A model generated the notes under the pieces. It was not told where the DNA came from. It searched no databases and worked only from the letters and a program-made list of their open reading frames with translations. A stretch of 49,428 bases of DNA from Methanobacteriota archaeon (GTDB lineage: Archaea; Thermoplasmatota; Poseidoniia; Poseidoniales; Thalassarchaeaceae), in assembly GCA_002683155.1 (NCBI GenBank), contig NYST01000009.1:7963-57390 (forward strand), given 5' to 3'. Below, piece by piece: positions 5,772 to 27,698 of the stretch. The position numbers and the translations under genes were made by a program. Position 1 is the first letter of the stretch. Each line of letters begins with the position of its first letter.

Positions 5772-6677
5772 ATGAGCAGGCATACCCGAGTCATCCTAAT
5801 CGATCTCTTGGTTGAGAGATCCGAGTTTGGTCATGGTGGAAATCAAGAGGTGGTGAATCCGATTGCGGAGGGCGGCCCGGTGGAGGTTCTGCTTGTTACT
5901 CCACAAATGCAGTCTGAAGAAGTGGGTGTTCGTGCTCAGGAAGAAGGCTTAGTCAGGATTTCTGAGGGAGATGTCCCGAATTGGGATTACGAATACCCGT
6001 TCTGGGAGGAATGCGGCTTGGAGATGCACGGAAATGATGTTATTTTCAGGAGGGTAGCAATGCCACTGAACGGAGATGACGCGTTAATGCGGGAGTGGAT
6101 TCGGACAATAAAACCGGATGCAGTTGTCTGCAGTGGCTCGAGGAGGAACGTGACGATGTGGGAAGAGTGGATGAATGGGAGTGGATCCCTTCTCAGATGC
6201 TCCTCAAGAATGGGAATACCCACGCTGGGAATCTGCTTTGGGCATCAACTCCTCTGCCATTCTCTTGGGGCTAGCGTCGAGAGGGCCGATTCCATGTCCA
6301 GTGGCGTCTGGGATCTTGCGCTAAATTCACATGGTTCCGCAGACGAGATTTTTGCATCTCGTGGCAGTGGCGAGGGAGGGGCGCCTGTGGCTCTATATTC
6401 GCACCAGGACCACGTGACAACGGTGCCAGAAAGTTGCTTGCTACTTGGTTCGGCGGATCACAACAGAGTTACAGCGGTTCGAGTTCTGGACGAAGAGGGG
6501 CAGGCACTACCCGCATGGGGCCTCCAATTCCATCCCGAAGCCGCCAAGGCGAGGGTTGAGAGGGCTTTCGAATGGGGTCACATTTCTGAGGAGGAAATGG
6601 TGGCCTTCCAGCGCGAACACGACGGTGCTGGCGTCCTGAATTCGTTTGCCTCGGTAATCCATGCTAATATTGGCTAA
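5772..6677 (+). CDS. Class I glutamine amidotransferase-like protein (GuaA-N / GATase1 family) with an N-terminal extension
   Basis: Nucleophile elbow [10 protein letters not shown] and the His/Glu element LQFHPE. Start taken at MSRHTRV (5772), because the track start at 5568 overlaps the NifU-like gene. Confidence 0.8.
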
Positions 6678-6709
6678 ACAGCAAGGGCCGTTTTACTATT
6701 GGATTTGGA

Positions 6710-6716
6710 TTAAATA
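6710..6716 (+). promoter_or_regulatory. TATA-box-like element upstream of hppA
   Basis: TTAAATA lies about 42 nt upstream of the hppA ATG, in a 77-nt intergenic gap. Confidence 0.25.
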
Positions 6717-6754
6717 GAGCACTCGATTCGGCGAGCCGAACTGATGGTGTAACT

Positions 6755-8833
6755 ATGGATGGAGAACAACTAGGGATGATAGGGATTGCAGCGGGGCTTT
6801 TTGGGCTTGCTGTTGCATTTTTCCTATACAATAAGGTGAATTCAATTAAGATCGAAAACGAAACCGTGGCGAAGATTACCGGGCGAATCCAAGACGGTGC
6901 TATGGCCTTCCTTTACGCAGAGTACAGGTTGCTGTCCGGATTTATTGTGCTAGTAGCAGTCCTCCTCCTCTTAGGAGGGGAAGAAAGGGGACTCGGGATG
7001 GAAACCATGATTGCATTCATCATTGGTGCCCTATGCAGTGTCGCTGCAGGATTCTCTGGAATGCGATCTGCCACTAGTGCAAACGGCCGTACAGCACAAG
7101 CTGCAGCAGATGGCGGTCAAGCGGCCGCACTAACCACCTCATACAATGGCGGTGCAGTGATGGGTCTAGCAGTAGGGGGTTTGGGACTAGCCGGCATTTC
7201 TCTGATGTATTACCTAACTGAGACCGACTTCCTCACTGTGGAGAACATTGCTGGGTTCGGGATGGGGGCATCCTCGATTGCACTTTTCGCACGTGTTGGC
7301 GGCGGCATTTACACCAAGGCAGCCGACGTGGGTGCTGATCTTGTTGGAAAGGTAGAAGCTGGAATTCCAGAGGATGATCCGAGGAACCCTGGAGTGATTG
7401 CCGACAACGTCGGGGACAATGTGGGCGATGTTGCGGGAATGGGTGCCGATATTTTCGAGTCATTCGTAGGAAGCATAATCGCAGCAATGGTGATCGCTGC
7501 GGCAAACGAGGATCTTCTAGGACCAGACTACGTTATGATTCCAGTCGTACTGGCAGTCGTTGGTTACATTGCTTCCATTATTGGCGTATTCTCGATAACA
7601 GCAATGCAGAACATGGACCCAGGAGCGGCACTGAGGAATACCACATTCATCGGAGCGGGACTTTTCATCGCTGGTGGATACCTCGCCCTAGCCTACCTAG
7701 ATTTGCCGACCACGGTAATCCAAGCTGTCGCAATCGGATCACTAGTTGGTATCCTGATTGGCCTTGTTACTGAGTACTACACTGGGATAGAAGACGTTTT
7801 CTTCGTCAAGGTCAAGGCTATACCGTACATAGGCGAAGCAAGCAAGACTGGAAGTGCGACTAACGCAATCGCTGGATTGGCAGTAGGGATGCAGTCGGTT
7901 TTCATCCCAGTACTACTGATGGCTGCAGGTATCTTTGGGGCTGATCACGTTATGGGCGGTGGAGATCTGGGCCTATATGGGATAGCAATGGCAGCAATGG
8001 GAATGCTAGGCACCGTCGGCGTGACTATGACGGTGGATGCTTACGGCCCTGTTGCGGACAATGCCGGCGGGATTGCTGAGATGTCCGGACTAGGTGATGA
8101 CGTCAGAGAGATTACCGATGGTCTCGACTCGATAGGCAACACCACGGCTGCAATCGGAAAGGGTTTCGCTATCGGCAGTGCTGCTTTGACGGCTCTAGCC
8201 CTTTTCGCTGCCTTCAAGACCAGTGCTAACCTTGAGGCTGCGGACCTGAGCCTTACTGAGCCAATGGTCGTAATCGGCCTTCTGATAGGTGCTGCACTGC
8301 CGTTCGTAGTCGCTGCGATGACGATGAAGTCAGTGGGGCGCGCAGCAGAGGACATGATTACCGAGATCAGGAGGCAGTTCAGGGAGATCGATGGCCTCCT
8401 TGAGGGTCGAGAAGGAGTAGAGCCAGACAGTTCGACCTGCGTGGACATCTCGACCAAGGCAGCCTTGAGGGAGATGGTGTTGCCAGGCTTCGTGGCAGTA
8501 TCTAGCCCAGTGATAATTGGGCTGTTGCTAGGTAGCGCAGCGCTGGGAGGTACTCTGGCCGGAGCAACTGCTAGCGGAGTGTTGATGGCGCTATTCATGG
8601 CAAACGCAGGTGGTGCTTGGGACAACGCCAAGAAGGCCATCGAGCAAGGCCATATCGAAGGTGCTGCAAAGGGCGATGATGCTCACAGCGCTGCTGTAGT
8701 CGGAGACACAATTGGTGACCCGTTCAAGGACACAAGTGGACCCTCTCTGAACATCCTGATCAAGCTGATGAGCATAGTCAGCGTTGTTATCGCTGGAATG
8801 TTGACCAAGACAGGCGAACTAGGCGCTCTCTGA
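6755..8833 (+). CDS. hppA: Membrane-integral ion-translocating pyrophosphatase (K+-dependent-type signature)
   Basis: [74 protein letters not shown]. 692 aa and highly hydrophobic. Confidence 0.95.
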
Positions 8834-8878
8834 AAGTAAGCGGGCGAGCGTCAGGCTCTTGACTGGCTGGCCCTAGCG

Positions 8879-9844
8879 GTGAGCATGGGGAAGGCACTCG
8901 CATATGGCATACTAGTGGTTCTCCTTGCATCTTCACTTGGGGGATGTGCAGGAGGCGAGTCTGGTGGGGGCGATTCCTCATCGGATGTTTTTGAGGTGCC
9001 CATCTGGGAGATTGGCGATTGGTGGCTATACACATTCTCAACTCCGGATTACAGCGATGACACTGCAAGATTGGTAGTGGCGAGCACTAGCGAGGAGGAC
9101 GGGTCGGCGTACATGCTTGCAATCTCAAGCCTTACCGAGGCGAGGCGCCATGCAGTTCTCAATCACAACCCCTTCCTGGGCAGGATGACACATTCTGAAT
9201 TGGGTGCCTTCGAGAATGGGGTTGCGCAATCGGTTCTGAGTTTCCCTCTCGAAGAGGGGAAAACATGGTCTTTCACACTTTTCTCGGTGGAATGGAGTGC
9301 ATTTGTGTCCGACATCTCGGGTAGTTCTGCAGTAATCATTGCTACTTCCTCGGATGGCTCAAGGCTGGATTACGTGTTCGACAGAGAGGCTGGTTTCTTC
9401 TACTCATTTACCTGGAAGGATGAGATGGGGGAGAATAAACTCAGGATGATGCTTTCCGATAGCGGTTCTGGGCACTCGGGGGATGTCTACTTCGTGAGAG
9501 GTGGAGACCTGTTCAGTGACGTGTGGGAGGATACTGGGAACGACATTGAGATTCGTGACACATTCCTCGTTAGCGACCACCCCAGTGATGGTGATTGGGA
9601 TGAGATGATCTACTTCATCGATGCAGATTGTGGTTCGGGGTCGTCCATCTCGCTGACCCTTAGGGATCACATGTCAATATCGGCACTAGAGAGAGTTTGG
9701 GGGCCAGGAGCCAGTGAAATGGGAACTCTTGGGACTATACCCTATCCATCTGAGGAATATACCCTAACAGCGACCTTTACAGGTGGTTCGACATTCTTGA
9801 GAGTTAGAATTGCTGGTGGAATAACCCAATCGTGGAGCATCTAG
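8879..9844 (+). CDS. Secreted lipoprotein-like hypothetical protein
   Basis: Signal peptide plus a lipobox-like LASSLGGC, then a Gly/Ser linker. The rest is a beta-rich acidic domain. No family recognised. Confidence 0.65.
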   Translation: MSMGKALAYGILVVLLASSLGGCAGGESGGGDSSSDVFEVPIWEIGDWWLYTFSTPDYSDDTARLVVASTSEEDGSAYMLAISSLTEARRHAVLNHNPFLGRMTHSELGAFENGVAQSVLSFPLEEGKTWSFTLFSVEWSAFVSDISGSSAVIIATSSDGSRLDYVFDREAGFFYSFTWKDEMGENKLRMMLSDSGSGHSGDVYFVRGGDLFSDVWEDTGNDIEIRDTFLVSDHPSDGDWDEMIYFIDADCGSGSSISLTLRDHMSISALERVWGPGASEMGTLGTIPYPSEEYTLTATFTGGSTFLRVRIAGGITQSWSI

Positions 9845-10131
9845 AGATATTCCAGAAGGTTATCTGATCCTCCGACAAAGATGGGCGCATCACCTCGCAT
9901 ATCAAACACAACAGGAACTGTGCGATGCCCGGTTTCTATGACTACTTCCTTGCGGAGACCTTCGAAGTTATCGAGGTTGACTTCTGAATAGGTTAGGCCC
10001 TTCGAATCAAGGGTCCTGAATGCTCGGGTACAGTATGGGCAGATCGTCTGTGTGAAGACTAGGAAGTCCTCATTTGAGGACTCTATTATGTCATGCAGGC
10101 GTGACAGCGTCACCGCCCCCATCTTCCCCAT
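9841..10131 (-). CDS. Glutaredoxin
   Basis: FTQTICPYCTRA (CPYC active site), TVPVVF and FVGGSD. Start placed at an internal ATG (10131 or 10122). Either start overlaps the 3' end of the upstream S8-MFS gene by about 30-40 nt. Confidence 0.8.
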   Translation of the reverse strand: MGKMGAVTLSRLHDIIESSNEDFLVFTQTICPYCTRAFRTLDSKGLTYSEVNLDNFEGLRKEVVIETGHRTVPVVFDMRGDAPIFVGGSDNLLEYL

Positions 10132-13100
10132 CCCACCATGCAGACTCCCCCAAGTCTGCATCCATGACTTCGTCGTCTTCGGATTTGTTCTCGAGAACCC
10201 GATTGCACTCATCAGGATCTATGAACACTAGGAAAACCACGGTAATCATGGTAAGTGCGGCACCCACATAGATGGCGGTCGCGTAGTCGTTATCGAAAAT
10301 CTCCAACATCCTCCCTGTGAAAGTATAGGCCATCACGGCTGATAGGTTGAACATCGACATGTAAGCTGTGAATTGGGTGCCGCCGACCTTGCTCCATGTC
10401 ATCTTCATCGCTACTGCAATTACACAAATCCAAGCAACTCCATTGATCAATCCGCGGATAATCAGATATGTTGTCATGATTGCCGTATTTGTCCAGAATG
10501 GCTGCAGGACTGCCAGCATTGCGTTTGACAATGCTAGGCATGTGAATCCGATCATTGCAACTCTCCTGACTCCGAATCTGTCGCCAAGCATACCGCCGGA
10601 GATTTGGCCTATCATTGTGGCAAATATCACCACCCCCCCTACTATGACGTTGTACTTCTCCTGCTCCCAACCTGCCCTATTGATGAATATGTCAAGCACG
10701 ATTGGGTCCACGAACAAGTACAGCTCAGAGAGGAGGCACAGGAAGATGAGCAAGAAGGACGACCTTAGTGAGAATGCCTTTGTGAGATTAAAAGTGGTCT
10801 GCGCGAGTGTCCTTCTTGCCCCAAATGGAAGTAAGGAGAATGGATTCTTGACCTTTGGAATGGTAAATGCCCGAGACATCAAAGAGACTGCCAATGCAAG
10901 GACTAACCCCCAAAATGCATATTTCTTTGCAACACCATATCCGGAGACAGTTAGATCCACGGACAGAATTGCATACAACAGGCCCAGGACAAAGATCGTC
11001 AATGAAATGATGGTGATGAGGGCGGCTAGTGGGATCTTTTCGTCAAATGTTGATTTTCCAACAGCCTTTGCAGCCCACCACCTTGACTCTTCTGGTTCTT
11101 CCCAGTATAGTGACTCATCGACTGCTGCCACTTCCACGGAGTCTTGATCGCCCGAAGAATCCCCTCCTGAATCCTTGTCTGACTTGCCAGACCATGGGAA
11201 GAGTCGCGTACCTGGCTTCTCATAGAGGAATAGTGGCAGGAGCATGATTAGGAGGAGGAGGGGGAGTTGAACGGATAGCATTCCCCTAATGCCTATCTTG
11301 GTGGCGAATCCTCCCAAAACCGCTCCCCCGATAATCATCCCTGCCCGCTTAGATGCGAACATGTACCCGTTCGCCTTTGAGACCTCGTCATCGTGAAGAA
11401 CGTCAACTGCTAGAGCATCGGTACTAACGTCTTGGAGGGATGCGAAGATATTGTGTATGAATAGGAGTTTGATCACCAAACCGAGTTCGTTCTTCAGATC
11501 TGGAATTAGAAGAAGGGTCCCTATAGAGGCAGCCATTCCGAACTGGGCGAAAATAATCCATAGCCTCCTAGATCCGAATTGAGGCATGTTCACAGTATCA
11601 ATCACCGGCCCCCATATCCACTTGAAGGTCCAAGGGAGAGCAATTGTGGCGAATAGGGTGGCGATCTCTTGTGGGGTGAGTCCATTGTCTGCTAGATATG
11701 CCGCGAAGGCTACTGAGGCGAATCCCCAGGGGAGGCCTTGGGCGAAGTAGAGCACGCATAGGGAGACCATTCGCCTGAGTCTGTTCTCAGTCAGGCTCTT
11801 TCCTTCGAACCACTCCTGGACTAGTTGTTCTCTGTTGAATATAACAAATCCAACCAATACGGAAAGCATCAACCCTACACCGATTATCAGGATGTTGGAA
11901 CTGCTTGAACCCCCCGAGCCACCTCCGGATGTCGCGGGCGTGTCGAGCAGAATTACTCGGCGGGCGTCTACTGGGGAGATATGCTCCTCATCGACGACTA
12001 GTCTAGCGAAAATGGTAGAGTTCCCGGACTCCTGGTGGGGATCAAGGCGGATACTCCAGAGTGACCAGTCTTCCAGTGGTGAGTCGTCCTCTGCCTCCTT
12101 CCAATCCCCGCCTCCGACACGAATCTCGACCCGAGTAGTTGGCTGACCTATCCCTGCTCCTGACGAGTGGCCATTGATGTAGCTCTCGTTGCCGATTTCT
12201 TGCAGGGTCTCCATTTCCATTGAGACATTGAGTGAACGATCGATGCTTCCTGCCGCCTCTACAAATGCTGTGGGGTCCGCCTGCCCATATCCAAACTCAT
12301 TGTCTGGTCTGGTCTCGAGAATACTACAATCGTTGAATCCCGGGTCATCAAGGAGCTGGACATCCCTCTCTATCGAATGTGCTGCAATTATTGACTTGAA
12401 CTCCGTAGGAGTCAGATCAGGATTGGCTTGAACCATCAATGCGGCGATTCCTGCCATTAGAGGAGTAGCCATACTCGTTCCTGACTTGCCGGTGTAGCCG
12501 TCCTGAGTAGCTGCATCGGGAGCCATTATGTCAGAGCCGATTGTTGCGACATCCGGTTTTACCCTGAGATCTGAAGTGTACCCCCTGCTGCTGTATATTG
12601 CAAGTCCTAGATCCTTGTCCAAACTGGCCACTGTAACCGGCAATTGCGCATCCCCAGGGCTATCTATCGTATTACAACCGGCTATGGTTACCCCGCCGAA
12701 TTCGTTCCCTGCCGATAGAGTCGTGATGATTCCTGCTTCGACGACCATGTCCATCTGTCGGCTCCATGCCGAACTCCCATCATTGTCCACATGTACCTCA
12801 AATTGCTGTTCCCCCAAGGAAGAAGTGACAATGTCGATTCCATACTTTTCCTTGTTGTCAATTGCCCACTGGGCCCCTTGCATCACATCCTCAATATCGC
12901 CATCACAGCAACCTAGTATGTTGATCAGATGGGCTCCGGGGGCGGCTCCGACGTACCTCAGACCCGTTGTGGGATCGGTCTGGCCACCTCCGGAGCCAGC
13001 TGCAATTCCTGCAACGTGGCTTCCGTGAGTCCCAGAGTCATAGGATGTTGATGGGTCTTGCTCCTCGTCGGTGAAGACTGCATCGAAGAATGCGATTATC

Positions 13101-13804
13101 TTGGGGTCGCAGTCCGCTGGAATGGGCTGTGGTTCAGGATTCAGGGGATCTGGCTCGGGAGGATCATCGATACAGGTAAATGGGTCGTCGTCCATATCGT
13201 TGAGGCCCTCGTGATCGCCACGTACCCCCGTGTCCAGAATGGCAATCACAGAACCTGTACCATCGAGCCCGAAGTCTTCCCACACTGTGTCGACGCCCAT
13301 GTTTGGAACCGCCTCGTGCATGTTGACCTCGGCGAGTCCAAGATCCTCGACCATCACCACGCCATTCAGGGATCGGATACCTCCTTCGTCTATGATTGGA
13401 GCGATTGGAGATGTGCCAGAAACCGTGTTCAAATATCCAAATCTGAAGGTAACTTCCACTCCAAGTGACTCTAGTGCAGAGATATCGGCATCTGTCGGAT
13501 GGTGGTCATAGTCGACGAAAATACGAGCACTTCCCTCGGGAGCCCTCTTCCACCAGTCCCTCTGAGTTTGTTCCGGTTGCTCGATCAACCATTCCAATCT
13601 GTCGTCAAGGGAGTTAGAATCCTTGTCTCGACTCCAATGAGTCCACCAATTCCAGTGAATGTCTGACTCTACACTGGGCACCCAATCCCCATTTGCATCG
13701 AATCCTCCTTGTCGTGACGGCTCAAAGGAGATTGAGGATGATACCAATGGTGCGATTAAGACCAATAGGGCGAGGGATGCAAACATATGGCGGCGGTCGG
13801 CCAT
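10091..13804 (-). CDS. Fusion protein: secreted subtilisin-like serine protease (S8), single adaptor TM helix, AmpG/PAT-family MFS permease
   Basis: N-terminal signal-like segment. S8 triad motifs are AILDTGV (D191), HGSHVAGIAAG (H260), SAGNE (N367) and SGTSMATPLMAG (S444). A Gly/Ser linker (TSGGGSGGSSSS) leads into the TM helix ILIIGVGLMLSVLVGFVIF. MFS signatures follow: GLPWGF, LPWTFKWIWGPVIDT, FGSRRLW, ASLQDVSTDALAVDVL. Confidence 0.85.
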   Translation of the reverse strand: MADRRHMFASLALLVLIAPLVSSSISFEPSRQGGFDANGDWVPSVESDIHWNWWTHWSRDKDSNSLDDRLEWLIEQPEQTQRDWWKRAPEGSARIFVDYDHHPTDADISALESLGVEVTFRFGYLNTVSGTSPIAPIIDEGGIRSLNGVVMVEDLGLAEVNMHEAVPNMGVDTVWEDFGLDGTGSVIAILDTGVRGDHEGLNDMDDDPFTCIDDPPEPDPLNPEPQPIPADCDPKIIAFFDAVFTDEEQDPSTSYDSGTHGSHVAGIAAGSGGGQTDPTTGLRYVGAAPGAHLINILGCCDGDIEDVMQGAQWAIDNKEKYGIDIVTSSLGEQQFEVHVDNDGSSAWSRQMDMVVEAGIITTLSAGNEFGGVTIAGCNTIDSPGDAQLPVTVASLDKDLGLAIYSSRGYTSDLRVKPDVATIGSDIMAPDAATQDGYTGKSGTSMATPLMAGIAALMVQANPDLTPTEFKSIIAAHSIERDVQLLDDPGFNDCSILETRPDNEFGYGQADPTAFVEAAGSIDRSLNVSMEMETLQEIGNESYINGHSSGAGIGQPTTRVEIRVGGGDWKEAEDDSPLEDWSLWSIRLDPHQESGNSTIFARLVVDEEHISPVDARRVILLDTPATSGGGSGGSSSSNILIIGVGLMLSVLVGFVIFNREQLVQEWFEGKSLTENRLRRMVSLCVLYFAQGLPWGFASVAFAAYLADNGLTPQEIATLFATIALPWTFKWIWGPVIDTVNMPQFGSRRLWIIFAQFGMAASIGTLLLIPDLKNELGLVIKLLFIHNIFASLQDVSTDALAVDVLHDDEVSKANGYMFASKRAGMIIGGAVLGGFATKIGIRGMLSVQLPLLLLIMLLPLFLYEKPGTRLFPWSGKSDKDSGGDSSGDQDSVEVAAVDESLYWEEPEESRWWAAKAVGKSTFDEKIPLAALITIISLTIFVLGLLYAILSVDLTVSGYGVAKKYAFWGLVLALAVSLMSRAFTIPKVKNPFSLLPFGARRTLAQTTFNLTKAFSLRSSFLLIFLCLLSELYLFVDPIVLDIFINRAGWEQEKYNVIVGGVVIFATMIGQISGGMLGDRFGVRRVAMIGFTCLALSNAMLAVLQPFWTNTAIMTTYLIIRGLINGVAWICVIAVAMKMTWSKVGGTQFTAYMSMFNLSAVMAYTFTGRMLEIFDNDYATAIYVGAALTMITVVFLVFIDPDECNRVLENKSEDDEVMDADLGESAWWDGEDGGGDAVTPA

Positions 13805-26480: not shown

Positions 26481-27698
26481 ATGAAAACAGCCTCTGCTCT
26501 GATTGGTTTGCTGCTTCTGTCGGCACCTCTAGTGGGTTGCCTTGGCGAGCAGGAAAAGGGGGTTGAAGATGATCTCTGGGTTGATGATGAGTTCGGTTCC
26601 TTTAGCGTAGTTGCCCCAGTAGACACGGGAATCAACGTATATCATGTCCACTTCACCATGAACGAGTCATATCCACAATGGCTTCTTGATCAATTAGGGG
26701 TAAACATGGTGTGCAATATCACTACCAATGGAACCTGGCAAGAGAGATATGAAGCAGATAAGGAGAGTTGCTGGGACATCATTGAATCTGGAGACATTGT
26801 TTGGTTTAGAGGAACCAGGATAATCGGAACGACACCCGATGACAATACTGAGATACCGATATTGGATGATCCCAGTGACGGACATGGAACTGCAGTAACA
26901 GGTTCGGTACTAAACGCAAATCCTGATGCAGTAATTTTCTTTGTTGAAGGTTTCAGTGATGCTGCAGTACTAGCGGCTGCGAACCAACCACTGGTTGACA
27001 TCATCACTACTAGTTTTGGACCCATCCTCTCACTCCCAGTGCCCGGTATTGAGGATGCCACCAAAGTAGCAGTAGTTCAAGAAAAGAAGATACACACAGG
27101 GGCTGCAGACAACTCCCCTTCTCCGGCTATTCAAGACTCCACTGCAGGCCCACCTTGGAGCATTGGGATTTCAGGATATGCAGAGGAGGATGACGATCAG
27201 AAGGAAACCATGAGTGGGTCATATCCAGACATCGCGGCTGACTGGACTCAGTTTTTGCCCAACCACGACGATATTGATGGGTACCATTGGACTTCAGGGA
27301 CTTCTTTCGCAACACCTAGGACTGCCGGCCTACTATCGGAGGTTCTAGAAAGTCTGAGAGCCGAATTCGGAGACCTGTCTTCTGGAGCTGATCCTGAAGA
27401 CAGGATGGGTTTTATCGTGAATGGGACAAATTTCACATTGACGAATGATGATTTGCGGGATGCGCTAAATCTCTCTGCATGGTATCCGTCTTTCTCAACT
27501 TGGGACCCTCTGTCGGGGACGACTCCCGTCTCCCCAGTGGCCCCATGCACCCAAGTTGGATGGGGTGTGGTGAACGAGAGTAATGTCAAGCCAATTATTG
27601 AGCATCTAAATGAGAGTAATGCGATGCCTCAGAGGCCATTTGATGTCGAGACCTGTATGGAGTCGAATCAGGACATCAGAGAAGCGTATTGGAACTAG
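26481..27698 (+). CDS. Lipoprotein-type subtilisin-like serine protease (S8)
   Basis: Signal peptide plus lipobox-like LSAPLVGC. Triad motifs are VDTGIN, DGHGTAVTGS, GAADNSP and SGTSFATPRTAG. Confidence 0.8.
   Translation: MKTASALIGLLLLSAPLVGCLGEQEKGVEDDLWVDDEFGSFSVVAPVDTGINVYHVHFTMNESYPQWLLDQLGVNMVCNITTNGTWQERYEADKESCWDIIESGDIVWFRGTRIIGTTPDDNTEIPILDDPSDGHGTAVTGSVLNANPDAVIFFVEGFSDAAVLAAANQPLVDIITTSFGPILSLPVPGIEDATKVAVVQEKKIHTGAADNSPSPAIQDSTAGPPWSIGISGYAEEDDDQKETMSGSYPDIAADWTQFLPNHDDIDGYHWTSGTSFATPRTAGLLSEVLESLRAEFGDLSSGADPEDRMGFIVNGTNFTLTNDDLRDALNLSAWYPSFSTWDPLSGTTPVSPVAPCTQVGWGVVNESNVKPIIEHLNESNAMPQRPFDVETCMESNQDIREAYWN

What the first reader, a model, noticed from the sequence alone, without database searches (positions are those of the whole stretch)
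10091..13804. Single-polypeptide fusion of an extracytoplasmic subtilase to an AmpG/PAT-family MFS permease (candidate tethered 'cut-and-import' machine)
Seen in the sequence:
- One uninterrupted 1237-aa ORF.
- Residues 1-25 are signal-like.
- Residues ~170-515 carry the S8 triad in canonical order (D191 AILDTGV, H260 HGSHVAG, N367, S444 SGTSMATP).
- A beta-rich domain and a Gly/Ser linker (TSGGGSGGSSSS) follow.
- One hydrophobic helix, ILIIGVGLMLSVLVGFVIF, lies at nt ~11837-11896.
- Then comes a polytopic domain whose first loops match the AmpG signatures almost residue for residue: GLP, FKWIWGPVID versus E. coli FKFLWSPLMD, FGSRRLW versus FGRRRGW, and ASLQDV..DA..VDVL.
- The central MFS loop carries an acidic insert and two extra hydrophobic helices.

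The topology is self-consistent. The adaptor helix returns the chain from outside to the cytoplasm, where an MFS N-terminus belongs.

Established knowledge: bacterial AmpG imports anhydromuropeptides, and the PAT family moves peptides, glycopeptides and acetyl-CoA.

Inference: the protease is physically coupled to the permease, so cleavage products are released at the mouth of the transporter. That would be an economical strategy for a planktonic cell feeding on dilute protein or cell-wall debris. I know of no characterised protease-MFS fusion.
Basis: partly seen in the sequence, partly recalled or inferred. Interest (0 to 1): 0.8.

Follow-up and report, generated by a model that had tools for sequence, protein, structure and literature searches.

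The report
Surface protease fused to membrane permease
A core gene of the abundant, uncultured Marine Group II ocean archaea really does encode a secreted subtilisin-type protease joined in one chain to an AmpG-like membrane transporter, probably so that digestion products are taken up where they are made, although this function has not been tested.

Summary
Window 10091-13804 (- strand) is one 1237-aa ORF. It encodes a signal peptide, a propeptide, an S8 subtilase with an invariant D191/H260/N367/S444 set, a beta-sandwich domain, a Gly/Ser linker, one adaptor TM helix, and a 12+2-helix MFS permease. The closest relatives of the permease by sequence and by fold are AmpG and SLC33A1.

It is not an assembly artefact. 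Relatives of the protein occur in 174 GTDB species genomes. The best 80 all look like Poseidoniales (one is binned elsewhere), include single-cell genomes and share one syntenic locus; 75 have an intact full-length ORF.

Both halves are under strong purifying selection (dN/dS 0.026 for S8, 0.005-0.014 for the MFS core).

The "cut-and-import" reading is plausible but unproven.
- For: outside-facing topology; a single TM would be enough to anchor; parallel M28-peptidase fusions to a paralogous MFS; the same S8 head on an unrelated MFS.
- Against: it scores below the AmpG family cut-off; the AmpG C-domain substrate residues are not conserved; the same MFS clade also carries cupredoxin and unknown ectodomains.

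New here: the MFS half is a recombining cassette whose history conflicts with that of the S8 half and both flanks.

Verdict: a new variant of a known kind, and interesting.

The parts
10091..13804 (-). Whole gene: 1237-aa S8 subtilase - MFS permease fusion (stop codon at 10091-10093)
   Evidence: ORF list; Pfam S8 + MFS_1 + Acatn; more than 120 full-length homologues
13730..13804 (-). Residues 1-25: Sec-type signal peptide (hydrophobic core 7-25)
   Evidence: Hydropathy peak 2.19 at 7-25. An equivalent N-terminal hydrophobic segment is present in all seven N-terminal ectodomain-MFS fusions examined. Cleavage is not tested.
13310..13729 (-). Residues 26-165: conserved Trp-rich N-region plus a subtilase N-propeptide-like beta-alpha-beta domain (about 89-155)
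   Evidence: AlphaFold strands and helices with pLDDT 60-92. The best fold and sequence match of the ectodomain is ProN-Tk-SP, 3afg.
12260..13309 (-). Residues 166-515: S8 catalytic domain. D191 at nt 13232-13234, H260 at 13025-13027, N367 at 12704-12706, S444 at 12473-12475
   Evidence: Pfam PF00082, E 3.6e-42. The triad and Asn are invariant in 35 homologues and 62% of columns are invariant. dN/dS is 0.026. AlphaFold did not fold this domain (pLDDT below 30), so the fold rests on the HMM evidence.
11945..12259 (-). Residues 516-620: Ig/CopC-like beta-sandwich domain with three N-x-S/T sequons
   Evidence: AlphaFold pLDDT 77-91 with about seven strands. Foldseek hits to beta-sandwich domains. 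Sequons listed.
11894..11944 (-). Residues 621-637: flexible Gly/Ser linker, part of the recombination breakpoint zone
   Evidence: Sequence; 6% invariant columns; identity switches at about residues 520-640 in mosaic pairs
11837..11893 (-). Residues 638-656: single adaptor TM helix, N-terminus outside and C-terminus inside
   Evidence: Hydropathy 2.92; AlphaFold helix 634-656; 0 K+R before it and R658, K669, R675, R677, R678 after it. The same single TM lies 45-70 aa before MFS TM1 in all seven N-terminal fusions.
11777..11836 (-). Residues 657-676: cytoplasmic linker, variable in length among relatives
   Evidence: Alignment A1 and the sequences: relatives carry 40-90 extra residues here, always in frame
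11210..11776 (-). Residues 677-865: MFS N-domain (TM1-6) with AmpG-type extended motif A (K728, W731, P733, D736, R746, R747, W749) and the QD...D motif of TM4
   Evidence: HMMER alignments to AmpG and SLC33A1; AlphaFold pLDDT 70-89; dN/dS 0.005
10805..11209 (-). Residues 866-1000: central cytoplasmic loop with an acidic stretch and a hairpin of two extra TM helices (926-947, 954-979)
   Evidence: AlphaFold helices. It is the least conserved part, with 5% invariant columns and dN/dS 0.20. It is absent from the M28-, cupredoxin- and some unknown-domain paralogues.
10205..10804 (-). Residues 1001-1200: MFS C-domain (TM7-12); invariant E1027 where AmpG has K235
   Evidence: dN/dS 0.014
10094..10204 (-). 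Residues 1201-1237: acidic cytoplasmic C-terminal tail
   Evidence: 15 D+E in residues 1195-1237, the last inside segment scored

Best explanation
This is a core, single-copy, syntenic gene of Marine Group II archaea (Poseidoniales).

Shown:
- It encodes one chain in which a Tk-SP-like subtilase ectodomain (signal peptide, propeptide, catalytically intact S8 domain, beta-sandwich) is tethered to a permease.
- The tether is a Gly/Ser linker plus one TM helix.
- The permease is a selectively maintained 12+2-helix MFS of the AmpG/SLC33A1 (PAT) lineage.

Inferred:
- After Sec-dependent insertion and autocatalytic propeptide removal, the active protease stays on the outer face of the membrane, a few nanometres above its own permease.
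- It cleaves dissolved or particulate protein, and the short products are captured by the proton-coupled permease before they diffuse away.
- This is a covalent version of protease-transporter clustering.

The substrate of the permease is unknown. Short peptides, or modified peptides, are the most economical guess. Anhydromuropeptides are unlikely.
For: Architecture and reality of the fusion.

Protease competence: D191/H260/N367/S444 are invariant and the S8 domain is 75-98% identical across the 80 GTDB loci (76-100% pairwise among the 76 aligned genes). Group means of 77-98% for S8 compare with 50-92% for neighbouring housekeeping genes.

Topology: positive-inside counts of 2/53 outside against 19/177 inside, and a single adaptor TM.

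Permease competence: motif A and the N-domain charged residues are kept. dN/dS is 0.005 and 0.014 in the MFS core, lower than in the protease domain.

An anchor alone would need only the one TM helix that is already there.

Recurrence of the design:
- An M28 metallopeptidase is fused in the same way (signal peptide, ectodomain, one TM, acidic linker) to a paralogous MFS in more than 55 protein clusters from Euryarchaeota and Thermoplasmatota MAGs.
- A Marine Group III clade has the S8-MFS fusion.
- The same S8 ectodomain is found on an unrelated, non-PAT MFS (P0484).
- More distant relatives carry C-terminal glycoside-hydrolase or 3-keto-disaccharide-hydrolase domains.

Precedents for enzyme-permease coupling:
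- The extracellular domain of PepT1/PepT2 binds trypsin (PMC4597091).
- The periplasmic domain of A. baumannii AmpG1 binds the lytic transglycosylase Slt (PMC13507758).

Ecology: MGII are reported to assimilate protein and to transcribe subtilase genes highly (PMC9723583). S8 and M28 are counted among their extracellular peptidases (PMC6864105).
Against: - No transport or protease assay exists.
- PAT-family members with known substrates move anhydromuropeptides or acetyl-CoA, and related families move siderophores or folate/biopterin. None is known to move plain peptides.
- AmpG cavity residues K132, K235, D238 and E336 are not conserved.
- The same MFS clade also carries a type-1 copper (plastocyanin-like) domain and unknown beta-rich domains, which do not fit a digest-and-import logic.
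- The MFS half is exchanged freely among lineages, with no co-variation with the S8 half (rho 0.07). This argues against an intimate, co-adapted docking of the two halves.
- The S8 domain is more conserved than is usual for a nutritional exoprotease, which hints at a specific substrate.
- The conserved gene neighbourhood is housekeeping (H+-PPase, glutaredoxin, GHMP kinase, riboflavin genes) and offers no functional support.
- AlphaFold failed on the S8 core, so nothing is known about how the head sits over the permease.
Confidence: 0.5

Rival explanations
1. Anchor or scaffold model. The essential activity is a highly specific surface protease, for example one that matures S-layer or other envelope proteins. 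The MFS serves mainly as a membrane platform, or does an unrelated transport job, so the two activities are not coupled through a shared substrate.
For: The S8 domain is exceptionally conserved: 62% of columns are invariant and group-mean identity is 77-98% against 50-92% for the flanks. MFS cassettes, including a non-PAT MFS, are interchangeable behind the same head. Cupredoxin and unknown ectodomains use the same MFS chassis.
Against: One TM helix already anchors the head, so a 14-helix anchor is costly. The MFS core is under the strongest purifying selection in the gene (dN/dS 0.005-0.014) and keeps motif A and the buried charged residues. This indicates a working transporter. Repeated independent joining of peptidases (S8, M28) to MFS permeases suggests selection for the combination.
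Confidence: 0.22
2. Export-and-process model. The MFS exports a peptide or metabolite precursor, which the tethered S8 domain matures outside the cell. This would be analogous to lantibiotic LanT/LanP systems or to ABC exporters with a C39 peptidase domain.
For: The central two-helix hairpin gives a 14-helix layout. After AmpG, the next Foldseek hits include efflux pumps (EfpA, QacA). That these are 14-helix DHA2-type pumps with a central hairpin is from memory, not tested here. Cassette-like diversification of the MFS half resembles the variability of conflict systems.
Against: The closest relatives by sequence and fold are an importer (AmpG) and an acetyl-CoA carrier, SLC33A1. The strictly conserved, housekeeping synteny contains no precursor, immunity or modification genes. 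The M28 aminopeptidase fusions do not fit leader-peptide processing.
Confidence: 0.08
3. True AmpG-like function. The permease imports peptidoglycan fragments (muropeptides) scavenged from bacterial debris, and the S8 domain trims the attached peptides or proteins.
For: AmpG is the best hit by HMM, by PDB sequence and by fold. The AmpG-specific extended motif A and K62/D125/D129 equivalents are present.
Against: The score is far below the AmpG family cut-off (123.7 against 350). K132, K235, D238 and E336 are not conserved and the TM13/14 vestibule is absent. The conserved N-domain residues that could be checked (K62, D125, D129) are shared with SLC33A1, so they are not AmpG-specific. By established knowledge, archaea have no murein to recycle and subtilases do not generate anhydromuropeptides.
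Confidence: 0.07
4. Artefact. Two adjacent genes were merged by a frameshift, a lost stop codon or a chimeric assembly join.
For: None found. One GTDB locus (L062) has a frameshift, but it lies inside the S8 domain and not at the junction.
Against: The ORF is continuous in 75 of 80 species loci, including single-cell genomes AG-343-E09, AG-422-I18 and AG-422-I22, and in hundreds of independent metagenome contigs. The linker length varies but is always in frame.
Confidence: 0.01

Closest known systems
E. coli / P. aeruginosa AmpG (anhydromuropeptide permease, MFS, PAT family TC 2.A.1.25)
   Same: It is the best match of the permease half by NCBIfam (TIGR00901, E 7.6e-36), by PDB sequence search (9j9z, 9c3f; E 1e-10 to 1e-11) and by Foldseek (E 1.7e-14). 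The extended motif A (K62, W65, P67, D70, R80/R81, W83) and the TM4 pair D125/D129 are conserved.
   Different: The score is below the family cut-off (123.7 against 350). K132 is Ala, K235 is an invariant Glu, D238 is absent and E336 is a variable R/K/Q. The extra helix pair is in the central loop, not C-terminal (TM13/14). The host is an archaeon without murein. It carries a 640-residue extracytoplasmic protease module that AmpG lacks.
A. baumannii AmpG1 with its periplasmic domain that binds the lytic transglycosylase Slt (PMC13507758)
   Same: A PAT-family permease with an added extracytoplasmic domain, proposed to couple polymer cleavage to import of the products.
   Different: There the enzyme is a separate protein recruited non-covalently, and the substrate is the cell's own peptidoglycan. 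Here the hydrolase is a protease and is part of the same chain.
Mammalian PepT1/PepT2 (SLC15, MFS) extracellular domain that binds trypsin (PMC4597091)
   Same: An MFS transporter with an extracellular module, proposed to cluster proteolysis at the site of peptide uptake.
   Different: It belongs to a different MFS family (POT). The protease binds transiently with micromolar affinity. The domain is inserted within the MFS fold rather than placed N-terminally through an extra TM helix.
Tk-SP, subtilisin-like serine protease of Thermococcus kodakarensis (PDB 3afg)
   Same: It is the closest solved relative of the ectodomain (E 5.8e-36 by sequence; top Foldseek hit). The solved ProN-Tk-SP construct supports an N-propeptide followed by the subtilase domain. 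That Tk-SP also has a C-terminal beta domain is from memory, not tested here.
   Different: From memory, Tk-SP is a soluble secreted enzyme. Here the chain continues through a TM helix into a permease.
Human SLC33A1 / AT-1 (acetyl-CoA transporter, Pfam Acatn)
   Same: It shares the TM1-TM4 signature (Pfam PF13000, 35 bits; PDB 9mun, E 2e-8), including the K, QD and D residues, and Ala at the AmpG K132 position.
   Different: Only the first ~75 residues of the permease match the Acatn model (profile positions 5-80 of 546). The cellular setting and presumably the cargo are different.

Membership tests
Peptidase S8 (subtilase), Pfam PF00082 / MEROPS S8 | Profile match above the curated cut-off | tested here: met
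   145.1 bits against a cut-off of 21.8, residues 182-507 covering profile positions 1-288 of 288
Peptidase S8 (subtilase), Pfam PF00082 / MEROPS S8 | Catalytic triad in the order Asp-His-Ser, plus the oxyanion-hole Asn | tested here: met
   D191, H260, S444 and N367 sit in canonical motifs and are invariant in 35 homologues
Peptidase S8 (subtilase), Pfam PF00082 / MEROPS S8 | N-terminal propeptide (intramolecular chaperone) that is removed autocatalytically | tested here: inconclusive
   A beta-alpha-beta domain at about residues 89-155 is modelled with pLDDT 60-92, and ProN-Tk-SP is the best structural match. There is no Pfam I9 hit, and cleavage cannot be tested with these tools.
Peptidase S8 (subtilase), Pfam PF00082 / MEROPS S8 | Proteolytic activity | not testable with these tools
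   Needs an enzyme assay
Major facilitator superfamily (Pfam MFS_1) | Profile match above the cut-off and two six-helix bundles | tested here: met
   97 bits against 33.4. AlphaFold gives TM1-6 and TM7-12 at pLDDT 70-89. Foldseek finds 322 matches at E <= 0.001, and all 50 listed are MFS transporters.
Major facilitator superfamily (Pfam MFS_1) | Motif A (G-x-x-x-D-x-x-G-x-R-R) between TM2 and TM3 | tested here: met
   GPVIDTVNMPQFGSRR. G732, P733, D736, R746 and R747 are invariant.
AmpG family muropeptide transporter (NCBIfam TIGR00901 / PRK11010) | Score above the curated family cut-off | tested here: not met
   TIGR00901 scores 123.7 against 350; NF008867 79.6 against 656; NF008238 61.2 against 756
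AmpG family muropeptide transporter (NCBIfam TIGR00901 / PRK11010) | Conserved titratable cavity residues K62, D125, D129, K132, K235, D238, E336 (PMC11568325) | tested here: not met
   K62, D125 and D129 are kept. K132 is Ala, K235 is Glu1027, D238 is absent and E336 is R1117, which varies among homologues.
AmpG family muropeptide transporter (NCBIfam TIGR00901 / PRK11010) | C-terminal TM13/TM14 hairpin forming the hydrophobic vestibule | tested here: not met
   The chain ends after TM12 with an acidic tail. The two extra helices lie in the central loop.
AmpG family muropeptide transporter (NCBIfam TIGR00901 / PRK11010) | Transport of GlcNAc-anhMurNAc(-peptides) for murein recycling | not testable with these tools
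   Needs a transport assay. By established knowledge the host clade (archaea) has no murein.
PAT family in the broad sense (AmpG / SLC33A1 / BT1-like clade of MFS) | Closest relatives by sequence and fold lie in this clade, and the TM1-TM4 signature is shared | tested here: met
   All PDB sequence hits are AmpG or SLC33A1. The top four Foldseek hits are AmpG. Pfam Acatn scores 35 bits against 23.7. Relatives also hit BT1.
Enzyme-coupled ('cut-and-import') uptake systems | Hydrolase located on the outer face, next to the permease entrance | tested here: inconclusive
   Signal peptide, one adaptor TM and the positive-inside distribution all place the S8 domain outside. The spatial relation of head to permease could not be modelled.
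Enzyme-coupled ('cut-and-import') uptake systems | The products of the hydrolase are the cargo of the permease | not testable with these tools
   Needs uptake assays with and without S444A and with an untethered ectodomain

The most novel reading that the evidence does not exclude
Poseidoniia archaea possess a modular family of 'ectoenzyme-permease chimeras'. Exchangeable outside heads (S8 protease, M28 peptidase, cupredoxin, unknown domains) are combined by recombination with exchangeable MFS cassettes through a standard one-helix adaptor. In this reading the S8-MFS member is the main digest-and-capture route by which these very abundant, uncultured archaea take up protein nitrogen from seawater. 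The shuffling of MFS cassettes would then reflect diversifying selection, either on cargo specificity or from viruses that use the exposed protein as a receptor.
Probability: 0.3. Interest if true: 0.85.

Novelty: new variant of a known kind. Interest (0 to 1): 0.66.

Why it matters
Marine Group II archaea are among the most abundant planktonic archaea. They are uncultured and are believed to live on dissolved and particulate protein, but the uptake route is unknown.

Genome surveys count their S8 and M28 enzymes simply as "extracellular peptidases" (PMC6864105). Here, a core S8 and a widespread M28 are each shown to be covalently joined to a permease.

If the coupling is functional, it is a compact answer to the diffusion-loss problem of extracellular digestion in a dilute ocean. 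It would be the first covalent example of protease-transporter clustering, which so far has been proposed only for non-covalent cases (PepT1-trypsin, AmpG1-Slt).

It also gives a single, expressible gene on which the idea can be tested. It would extend the cargo range of the AmpG/SLC33A1 lineage. Finally, it shows an unusual intragenic cassette exchange in a core gene.

Tried and rejected
1. Whole-chain AlphaFold of residues 30-1215 with 35 homologues gave a mean pLDDT of 57.5. The MFS, propeptide and beta domains were usable, but the S8 core was below 30. A second run on the ectodomain alone also failed on the S8 core, probably because the alignment is shallow and nearly invariant there. No statement about head-permease geometry is therefore possible.

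2. Gene neighbourhood as a functional clue: the neighbours are H+-PPase, an unknown lipoprotein-like gene, glutaredoxin, a GHMP kinase, riboflavin genes and TrxR. The synteny is conserved but is housekeeping and uninformative.

3. Frameshift or chimera: rejected.

4. True paralogues within one genome: the doubled loci in UBA181 and TMED192 have nearly identical values and the same flanks, so they look like assembly or strain redundancy.

5. Rate variation alone as an explanation for the S8/MFS discordance: rejected. Quartet bootstraps gave 500/500 for conflicting topologies in four quartets, and synonymous divergence jumps at the junction.

6. Recent horizontal transfer of the MFS cassette: not supported. 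MFS cassettes of the same type still differ at dS of about 1.3-1.4 (window against L007), so the exchanges are old.

7. Literature searches for a described S8-MFS or AmpG-like protein in MGII found nothing. The library lacks most subscription journals.

8. A Tat-type export signal was considered because of the RR in DRRHMF. It was rejected because the RR is not conserved in homologues and, by established knowledge, a polytopic membrane protein needs Sec/YidC-type insertion.

Full report
**1. The observation**

The window holds one uninterrupted ORF at 10091..13804 on the minus strand, 1237 aa.

Profile searches give:
- Pfam Peptidase_S8 at residues 182-507, E 3.6e-42, covering the full profile.
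- Pfam MFS_1 at 682-1158, E 1.4e-27.
- Pfam Acatn at 682-756.
- The best NCBIfam model is the AmpG family subfamily model TIGR00901 (E 7.6e-36, residues 677-1192). Its score of 123.7 bits is well under the curated cut-off of 350.

**2. Is the fusion real?**

Yes.
- A search of 5.8 billion proteins returned more than 120 full-length homologues, 1223-1317 aa, 62-99% identical and each carrying both domains. They come from independent ENA, JGI, Tara, NCBI and Logan assemblies.
- Source names place them in Marine Group II archaea (Candidatus Thalassarchaeaceae, Euryarchaeota or Methanobacteriota MAGs).
- IMG already labels some 'subtilisin family serine protease/MFS family permease'.
- A scan of one genome per GTDB species found 174 genomes with a relative.
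- The best 80 loci carry Poseidoniales or related archaeal names, except one binned as Neomarinimicrobiota that has the same archaeal flanks. They include three single-cell genomes.
- In 75 of these 80 the ORF is intact and longer than 1150 aa. Four are cut by contig ends and one (L062) has a frameshift inside the S8 domain, not at the junction.
- The region between the adaptor helix and the first MFS helix varies by 40-90 residues among relatives but is always in frame.

**3. Anatomy**

| Residues | Feature |
|---|---|
| 1-25 | Signal peptide |
| 26-165 | Trp-rich region plus a beta-alpha-beta propeptide-like domain (pLDDT 60-92) |
| 166-515 | S8 catalytic domain |
| 516-620 | Beta-sandwich domain (pLDDT 77-91) |
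| 621-637 | Gly/Ser linker |
| 638-656 | Adaptor TM helix |
| 657-676 | Cytoplasmic linker |
| 677-865 | MFS TM1-6 |
| 866-1000 | Acidic loop with two extra TM helices (926-947, 954-979) |
| 1001-1200 | MFS TM7-12 |
| 1201-1237 | Acidic tail |

These boundaries rest.

- The closest solved relative of the ectodomain is the archaeal subtilase Tk-SP, solved with its N-propeptide (3afg). It matches at E 5.8e-36 by sequence and is the top Foldseek hit.
- AlphaFold did not fold the S8 core in either run (pLDDT below 30). The S8 assignment therefore rests on the HMM evidence and on the motifs.
- D191, H260, N367 and S444 are invariant in 35 homologues.
- Loops predicted to face outward hold 2 K+R in 53 residues. 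Inward loops hold 19 in 177, with R658, K669, R675, R677 and R678 directly after the adaptor helix.

**4. What kind of permease?**

All PDB sequence hits are AmpG (E about 1e-10 to 1e-11) or human SLC33A1 (about 2e-8). The four best Foldseek hits of the model are AmpG structures.

Residue mapping uses the functional residues named in the AmpG cryo-EM paper (PMC11568325):
- The N-domain set is present: K62, W65, P67, D70, R80/R81, W83, D125 and D129. K62, D125 and D129 are also present in the aligned SLC33A1 stretch.
- The other cavity residues are not conserved. K132 is Ala, K235 is an invariant Glu, D238 is missing and E336 is a variable R/K/Q.
- E. coli AmpG places its two extra helices at the C-terminus (TM13/14). 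Here they sit in the central loop.

The permease therefore belongs to the AmpG/SLC33A1 (PAT) lineage but fails the tests for membership of the AmpG family proper. Its cargo cannot be read from homology.

**5. Selection**

Against the closest species genome (L001):

| Region | dN/dS |
|---|---|
| S8 domain | 0.026 |
| MFS N-domain | 0.005 |
| MFS C-domain | 0.014 |
| Linker | 0.10 |
| Central insert | 0.20 |

The permease core is thus the most constrained part of the gene. That is hard to reconcile with a mere anchor, particularly as one TM helix is already present.

The S8 domain is also unusually conserved. In the 35-sequence alignment 62% of its columns are invariant. Group-mean identity across Poseidoniales is 77-98%, against 50-92% for the neighbouring riboflavin, glutaredoxin and thioredoxin-reductase genes.

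**6. A wider modular family**

An exhaustive HMMER search with the permease half (residues 620-1237) was run against 1.84 billion cluster representatives. It found stand-alone permeases of 420-470 aa at 35-41% identity. IMG names some of these 'PAT family ... AmpG'.

It also found other proteins with the same layout of signal peptide, ectodomain, one TM, acidic linker and MFS:
- An M28 metallopeptidase fusion (P0123, 869 aa).
- A plastocyanin-like type-1 copper domain fusion (P0125).
- Several fusions with unknown beta-rich domains (P0121, P0122, P0126, P0127).
- A Marine Group III S8-MFS clade (P0129).

Further points:
- The M28-MFS fusion is itself widespread, with more than 55 clusters at 90% identity from Euryarchaeota and Thermoplasmatota MAGs.
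- In relatives of the Marine Group III clade, the same S8 ectodomain (propeptide, catalytic domain, beta domain and adaptor helix all align) is joined to an unrelated, non-PAT MFS (P0484).
- More distant permease relatives carry C-terminal glycoside-hydrolase, 3-keto-disaccharide-hydrolase or FG-GAP modules.

So the combination of peptidase plus MFS has arisen or been retained several times, which favours a functional link. The cupredoxin and unknown heads show that the chassis is not used only for digestion.

**7. An unexpected mosaic**

The locus is syntenic across the 80 species genomes: H+-PPase, an unknown lipoprotein-like gene, glutaredoxin, the fusion gene, a GHMP kinase, DHBP synthase, RibL, riboflavin synthase and TrxR. 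Yet the two halves of the gene have unrelated histories.

- Across 76 genes, the pairwise-identity matrices correlate within each half: rho 0.86 for propeptide against S8, and 0.81 for MFS-N against MFS-C.
- Between the halves the correlation is 0.07.
- Flanking genes on both sides track the S8 half (rho 0.64-0.88 for six of the eight; 0.45-0.48 for H+-PPase and the lipoprotein-like gene) and not the MFS half (0.06-0.27). This includes glutaredoxin, which lies directly 3' of the MFS-coding end.
- Sliding windows place the switch at about residues 520-640, which is the beta domain, linker and adaptor helix.
- Four quartets give 500/500 bootstrap support for conflicting topologies in the two halves.
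- Synonymous divergence jumps at the junction. For the window against L012, dS is 0.36 in S8 but saturated in the MFS. For the window against L007 the pattern is reversed.

The roughly 1.7-kb MFS-coding segment is therefore an old recombining cassette inside a core gene. Each cassette type is itself highly conserved. This shows the two modules need no mutual co-adaptation. The reason for the exchange is unexplained; cargo specificity and virus-driven surface variation are both possible.

**8. Mechanism**

My best explanation, at confidence about 0.5, is a tethered digest-and-capture device. The active subtilase is held at the outer membrane face above its own proton-coupled permease, which takes up short products.

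- Shown: the architecture, the outward topology by prediction, catalytic competence by sequence, and selective maintenance of both halves.
- Inferred: the cargo, and any kinetic benefit of the tether.

Precedents for the principle:
- The extracellular domains of PepT1/PepT2 bind trypsin (PMC4597091).
- The periplasmic domain of A. baumannii AmpG1 binds the lytic transglycosylase Slt (PMC13507758).
- Both are non-covalent.

Field data fit the model. MGII are reported to assimilate protein and to transcribe subtilase genes highly (PMC9723583). S8 and M28 are listed among their extracellular peptidases, with no mention of the fused permease (PMC6864105).

Rivals:
- A specific surface maturation protease on an MFS platform (0.22).
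- Export-and-process (0.08).
- Genuine muropeptide scavenging (0.07).
- Artefact (0.01).

**9. Novelty and verdict**

I found no paper describing this fusion, although the library is incomplete. The sequences and a dual IMG label are already public. The domains are ordinary. What is not ordinary is the covalent combination, its status as a core gene in a globally abundant clade, the parallel M28 fusion and the cassette exchange. I rate it a new variant of a known kind, with interest 0.66.

Noticed in passing
window 10094-11944 (MFS-coding half plus linker), compared with loci L001-L080: The MFS-coding half of the gene is an ancient recombining cassette. Its pairwise divergences are uncorrelated with the S8 half (rho 0.07) and with both flanks. 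Quartet bootstraps give 500/500 for conflicting topologies, and dS jumps at the junction. Breakpoints lie at about residues 520-640.
   Followed up: yes
proteins P0123, P0125, P0126, P0127, P0121, P0122 (not in the window): Paralogous AmpG/PAT-like MFS permeases in marine Euryarchaeota and Thermoplasmatota carry other N-terminal ectodomains through the same one-helix adaptor. These are an M28 metallopeptidase (widespread, more than 55 clusters), a plastocyanin-like type-1 copper domain with C..H..M ligands, and unknown beta-rich domains.
   Followed up: partly
proteins P0484, P0489, P0490 (not in the window): In relatives of the Marine Group III clade, the same S8 ectodomain and adaptor helix are joined to an unrelated, non-PAT MFS. 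Its hits are Pfam MFS_1 and MFS_1_like, and it has a canonical GxxxDxxGRR motif A.
   Followed up: partly
proteins P0167, P0205, P0239 (not in the window): More distant relatives of the permease (31-37% identity) carry C-terminal 3-keto-disaccharide-hydrolase, FG-GAP, or MGH1-like glycoside-hydrolase plus F5/8-type-C modules. Their taxonomy, and whether an extra TM puts these modules outside, were not checked.
   Followed up: no
window 8879-9844 (+): A 321-aa ORF with a lipoprotein-like N-terminus (LASSLGGCAGG) and no Pfam hit sits in conserved synteny between H+-PPase and glutaredoxin in most of the Poseidoniales loci where that flank is present (64 of 80). Its identity to the window copy is bimodal (43-47% against 57-90%) and tracks the other flanks poorly.
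   Followed up: no
window 6755-8833 (+): The membrane H+-pyrophosphatase next to the locus also shows a roughly bimodal identity distribution (70-77% against 82-97%). It correlates only weakly with other flanking genes (rho 0.24-0.62), so it too may have a mosaic history.
   Followed up: no
window 9841-10212 (-): The longest ORF for the downstream glutaredoxin overlaps the 3' end of the fusion gene by 122 nt. The Pfam Glutaredoxin match starts only at residue 51, so the true start is probably an internal Met and the overlap is probably not real.
   Followed up: no
window 26481-27698 (+): A second, weak subtilase-like ORF of 405 aa (Pfam Peptidase_S8, 25.5 bits, E 1e-5) lies elsewhere in the window. 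It has no MFS domain attached.
   Followed up: no
L062 (about 6001-9731) and L067: L062 (UBA8684) has a frameshift inside the S8 domain, near residues 378-396. This is either an assembly error or a pseudogene. L067 is binned as a Neomarinimicrobiota bacterium but carries the archaeal gene and flanks, so it is probably mis-binned.
   Followed up: partly
proteins P0403-P0418 (not in the window): M28 peptidases of about 860-890 aa from Thalassarchaeaceae share the M28 ectodomain of the M28-MFS fusion. They have a C-terminal half of about 400 aa with no confident Pfam match (one has a sub-threshold Acatn hit). This could be a very divergent membrane domain.
   Followed up: no
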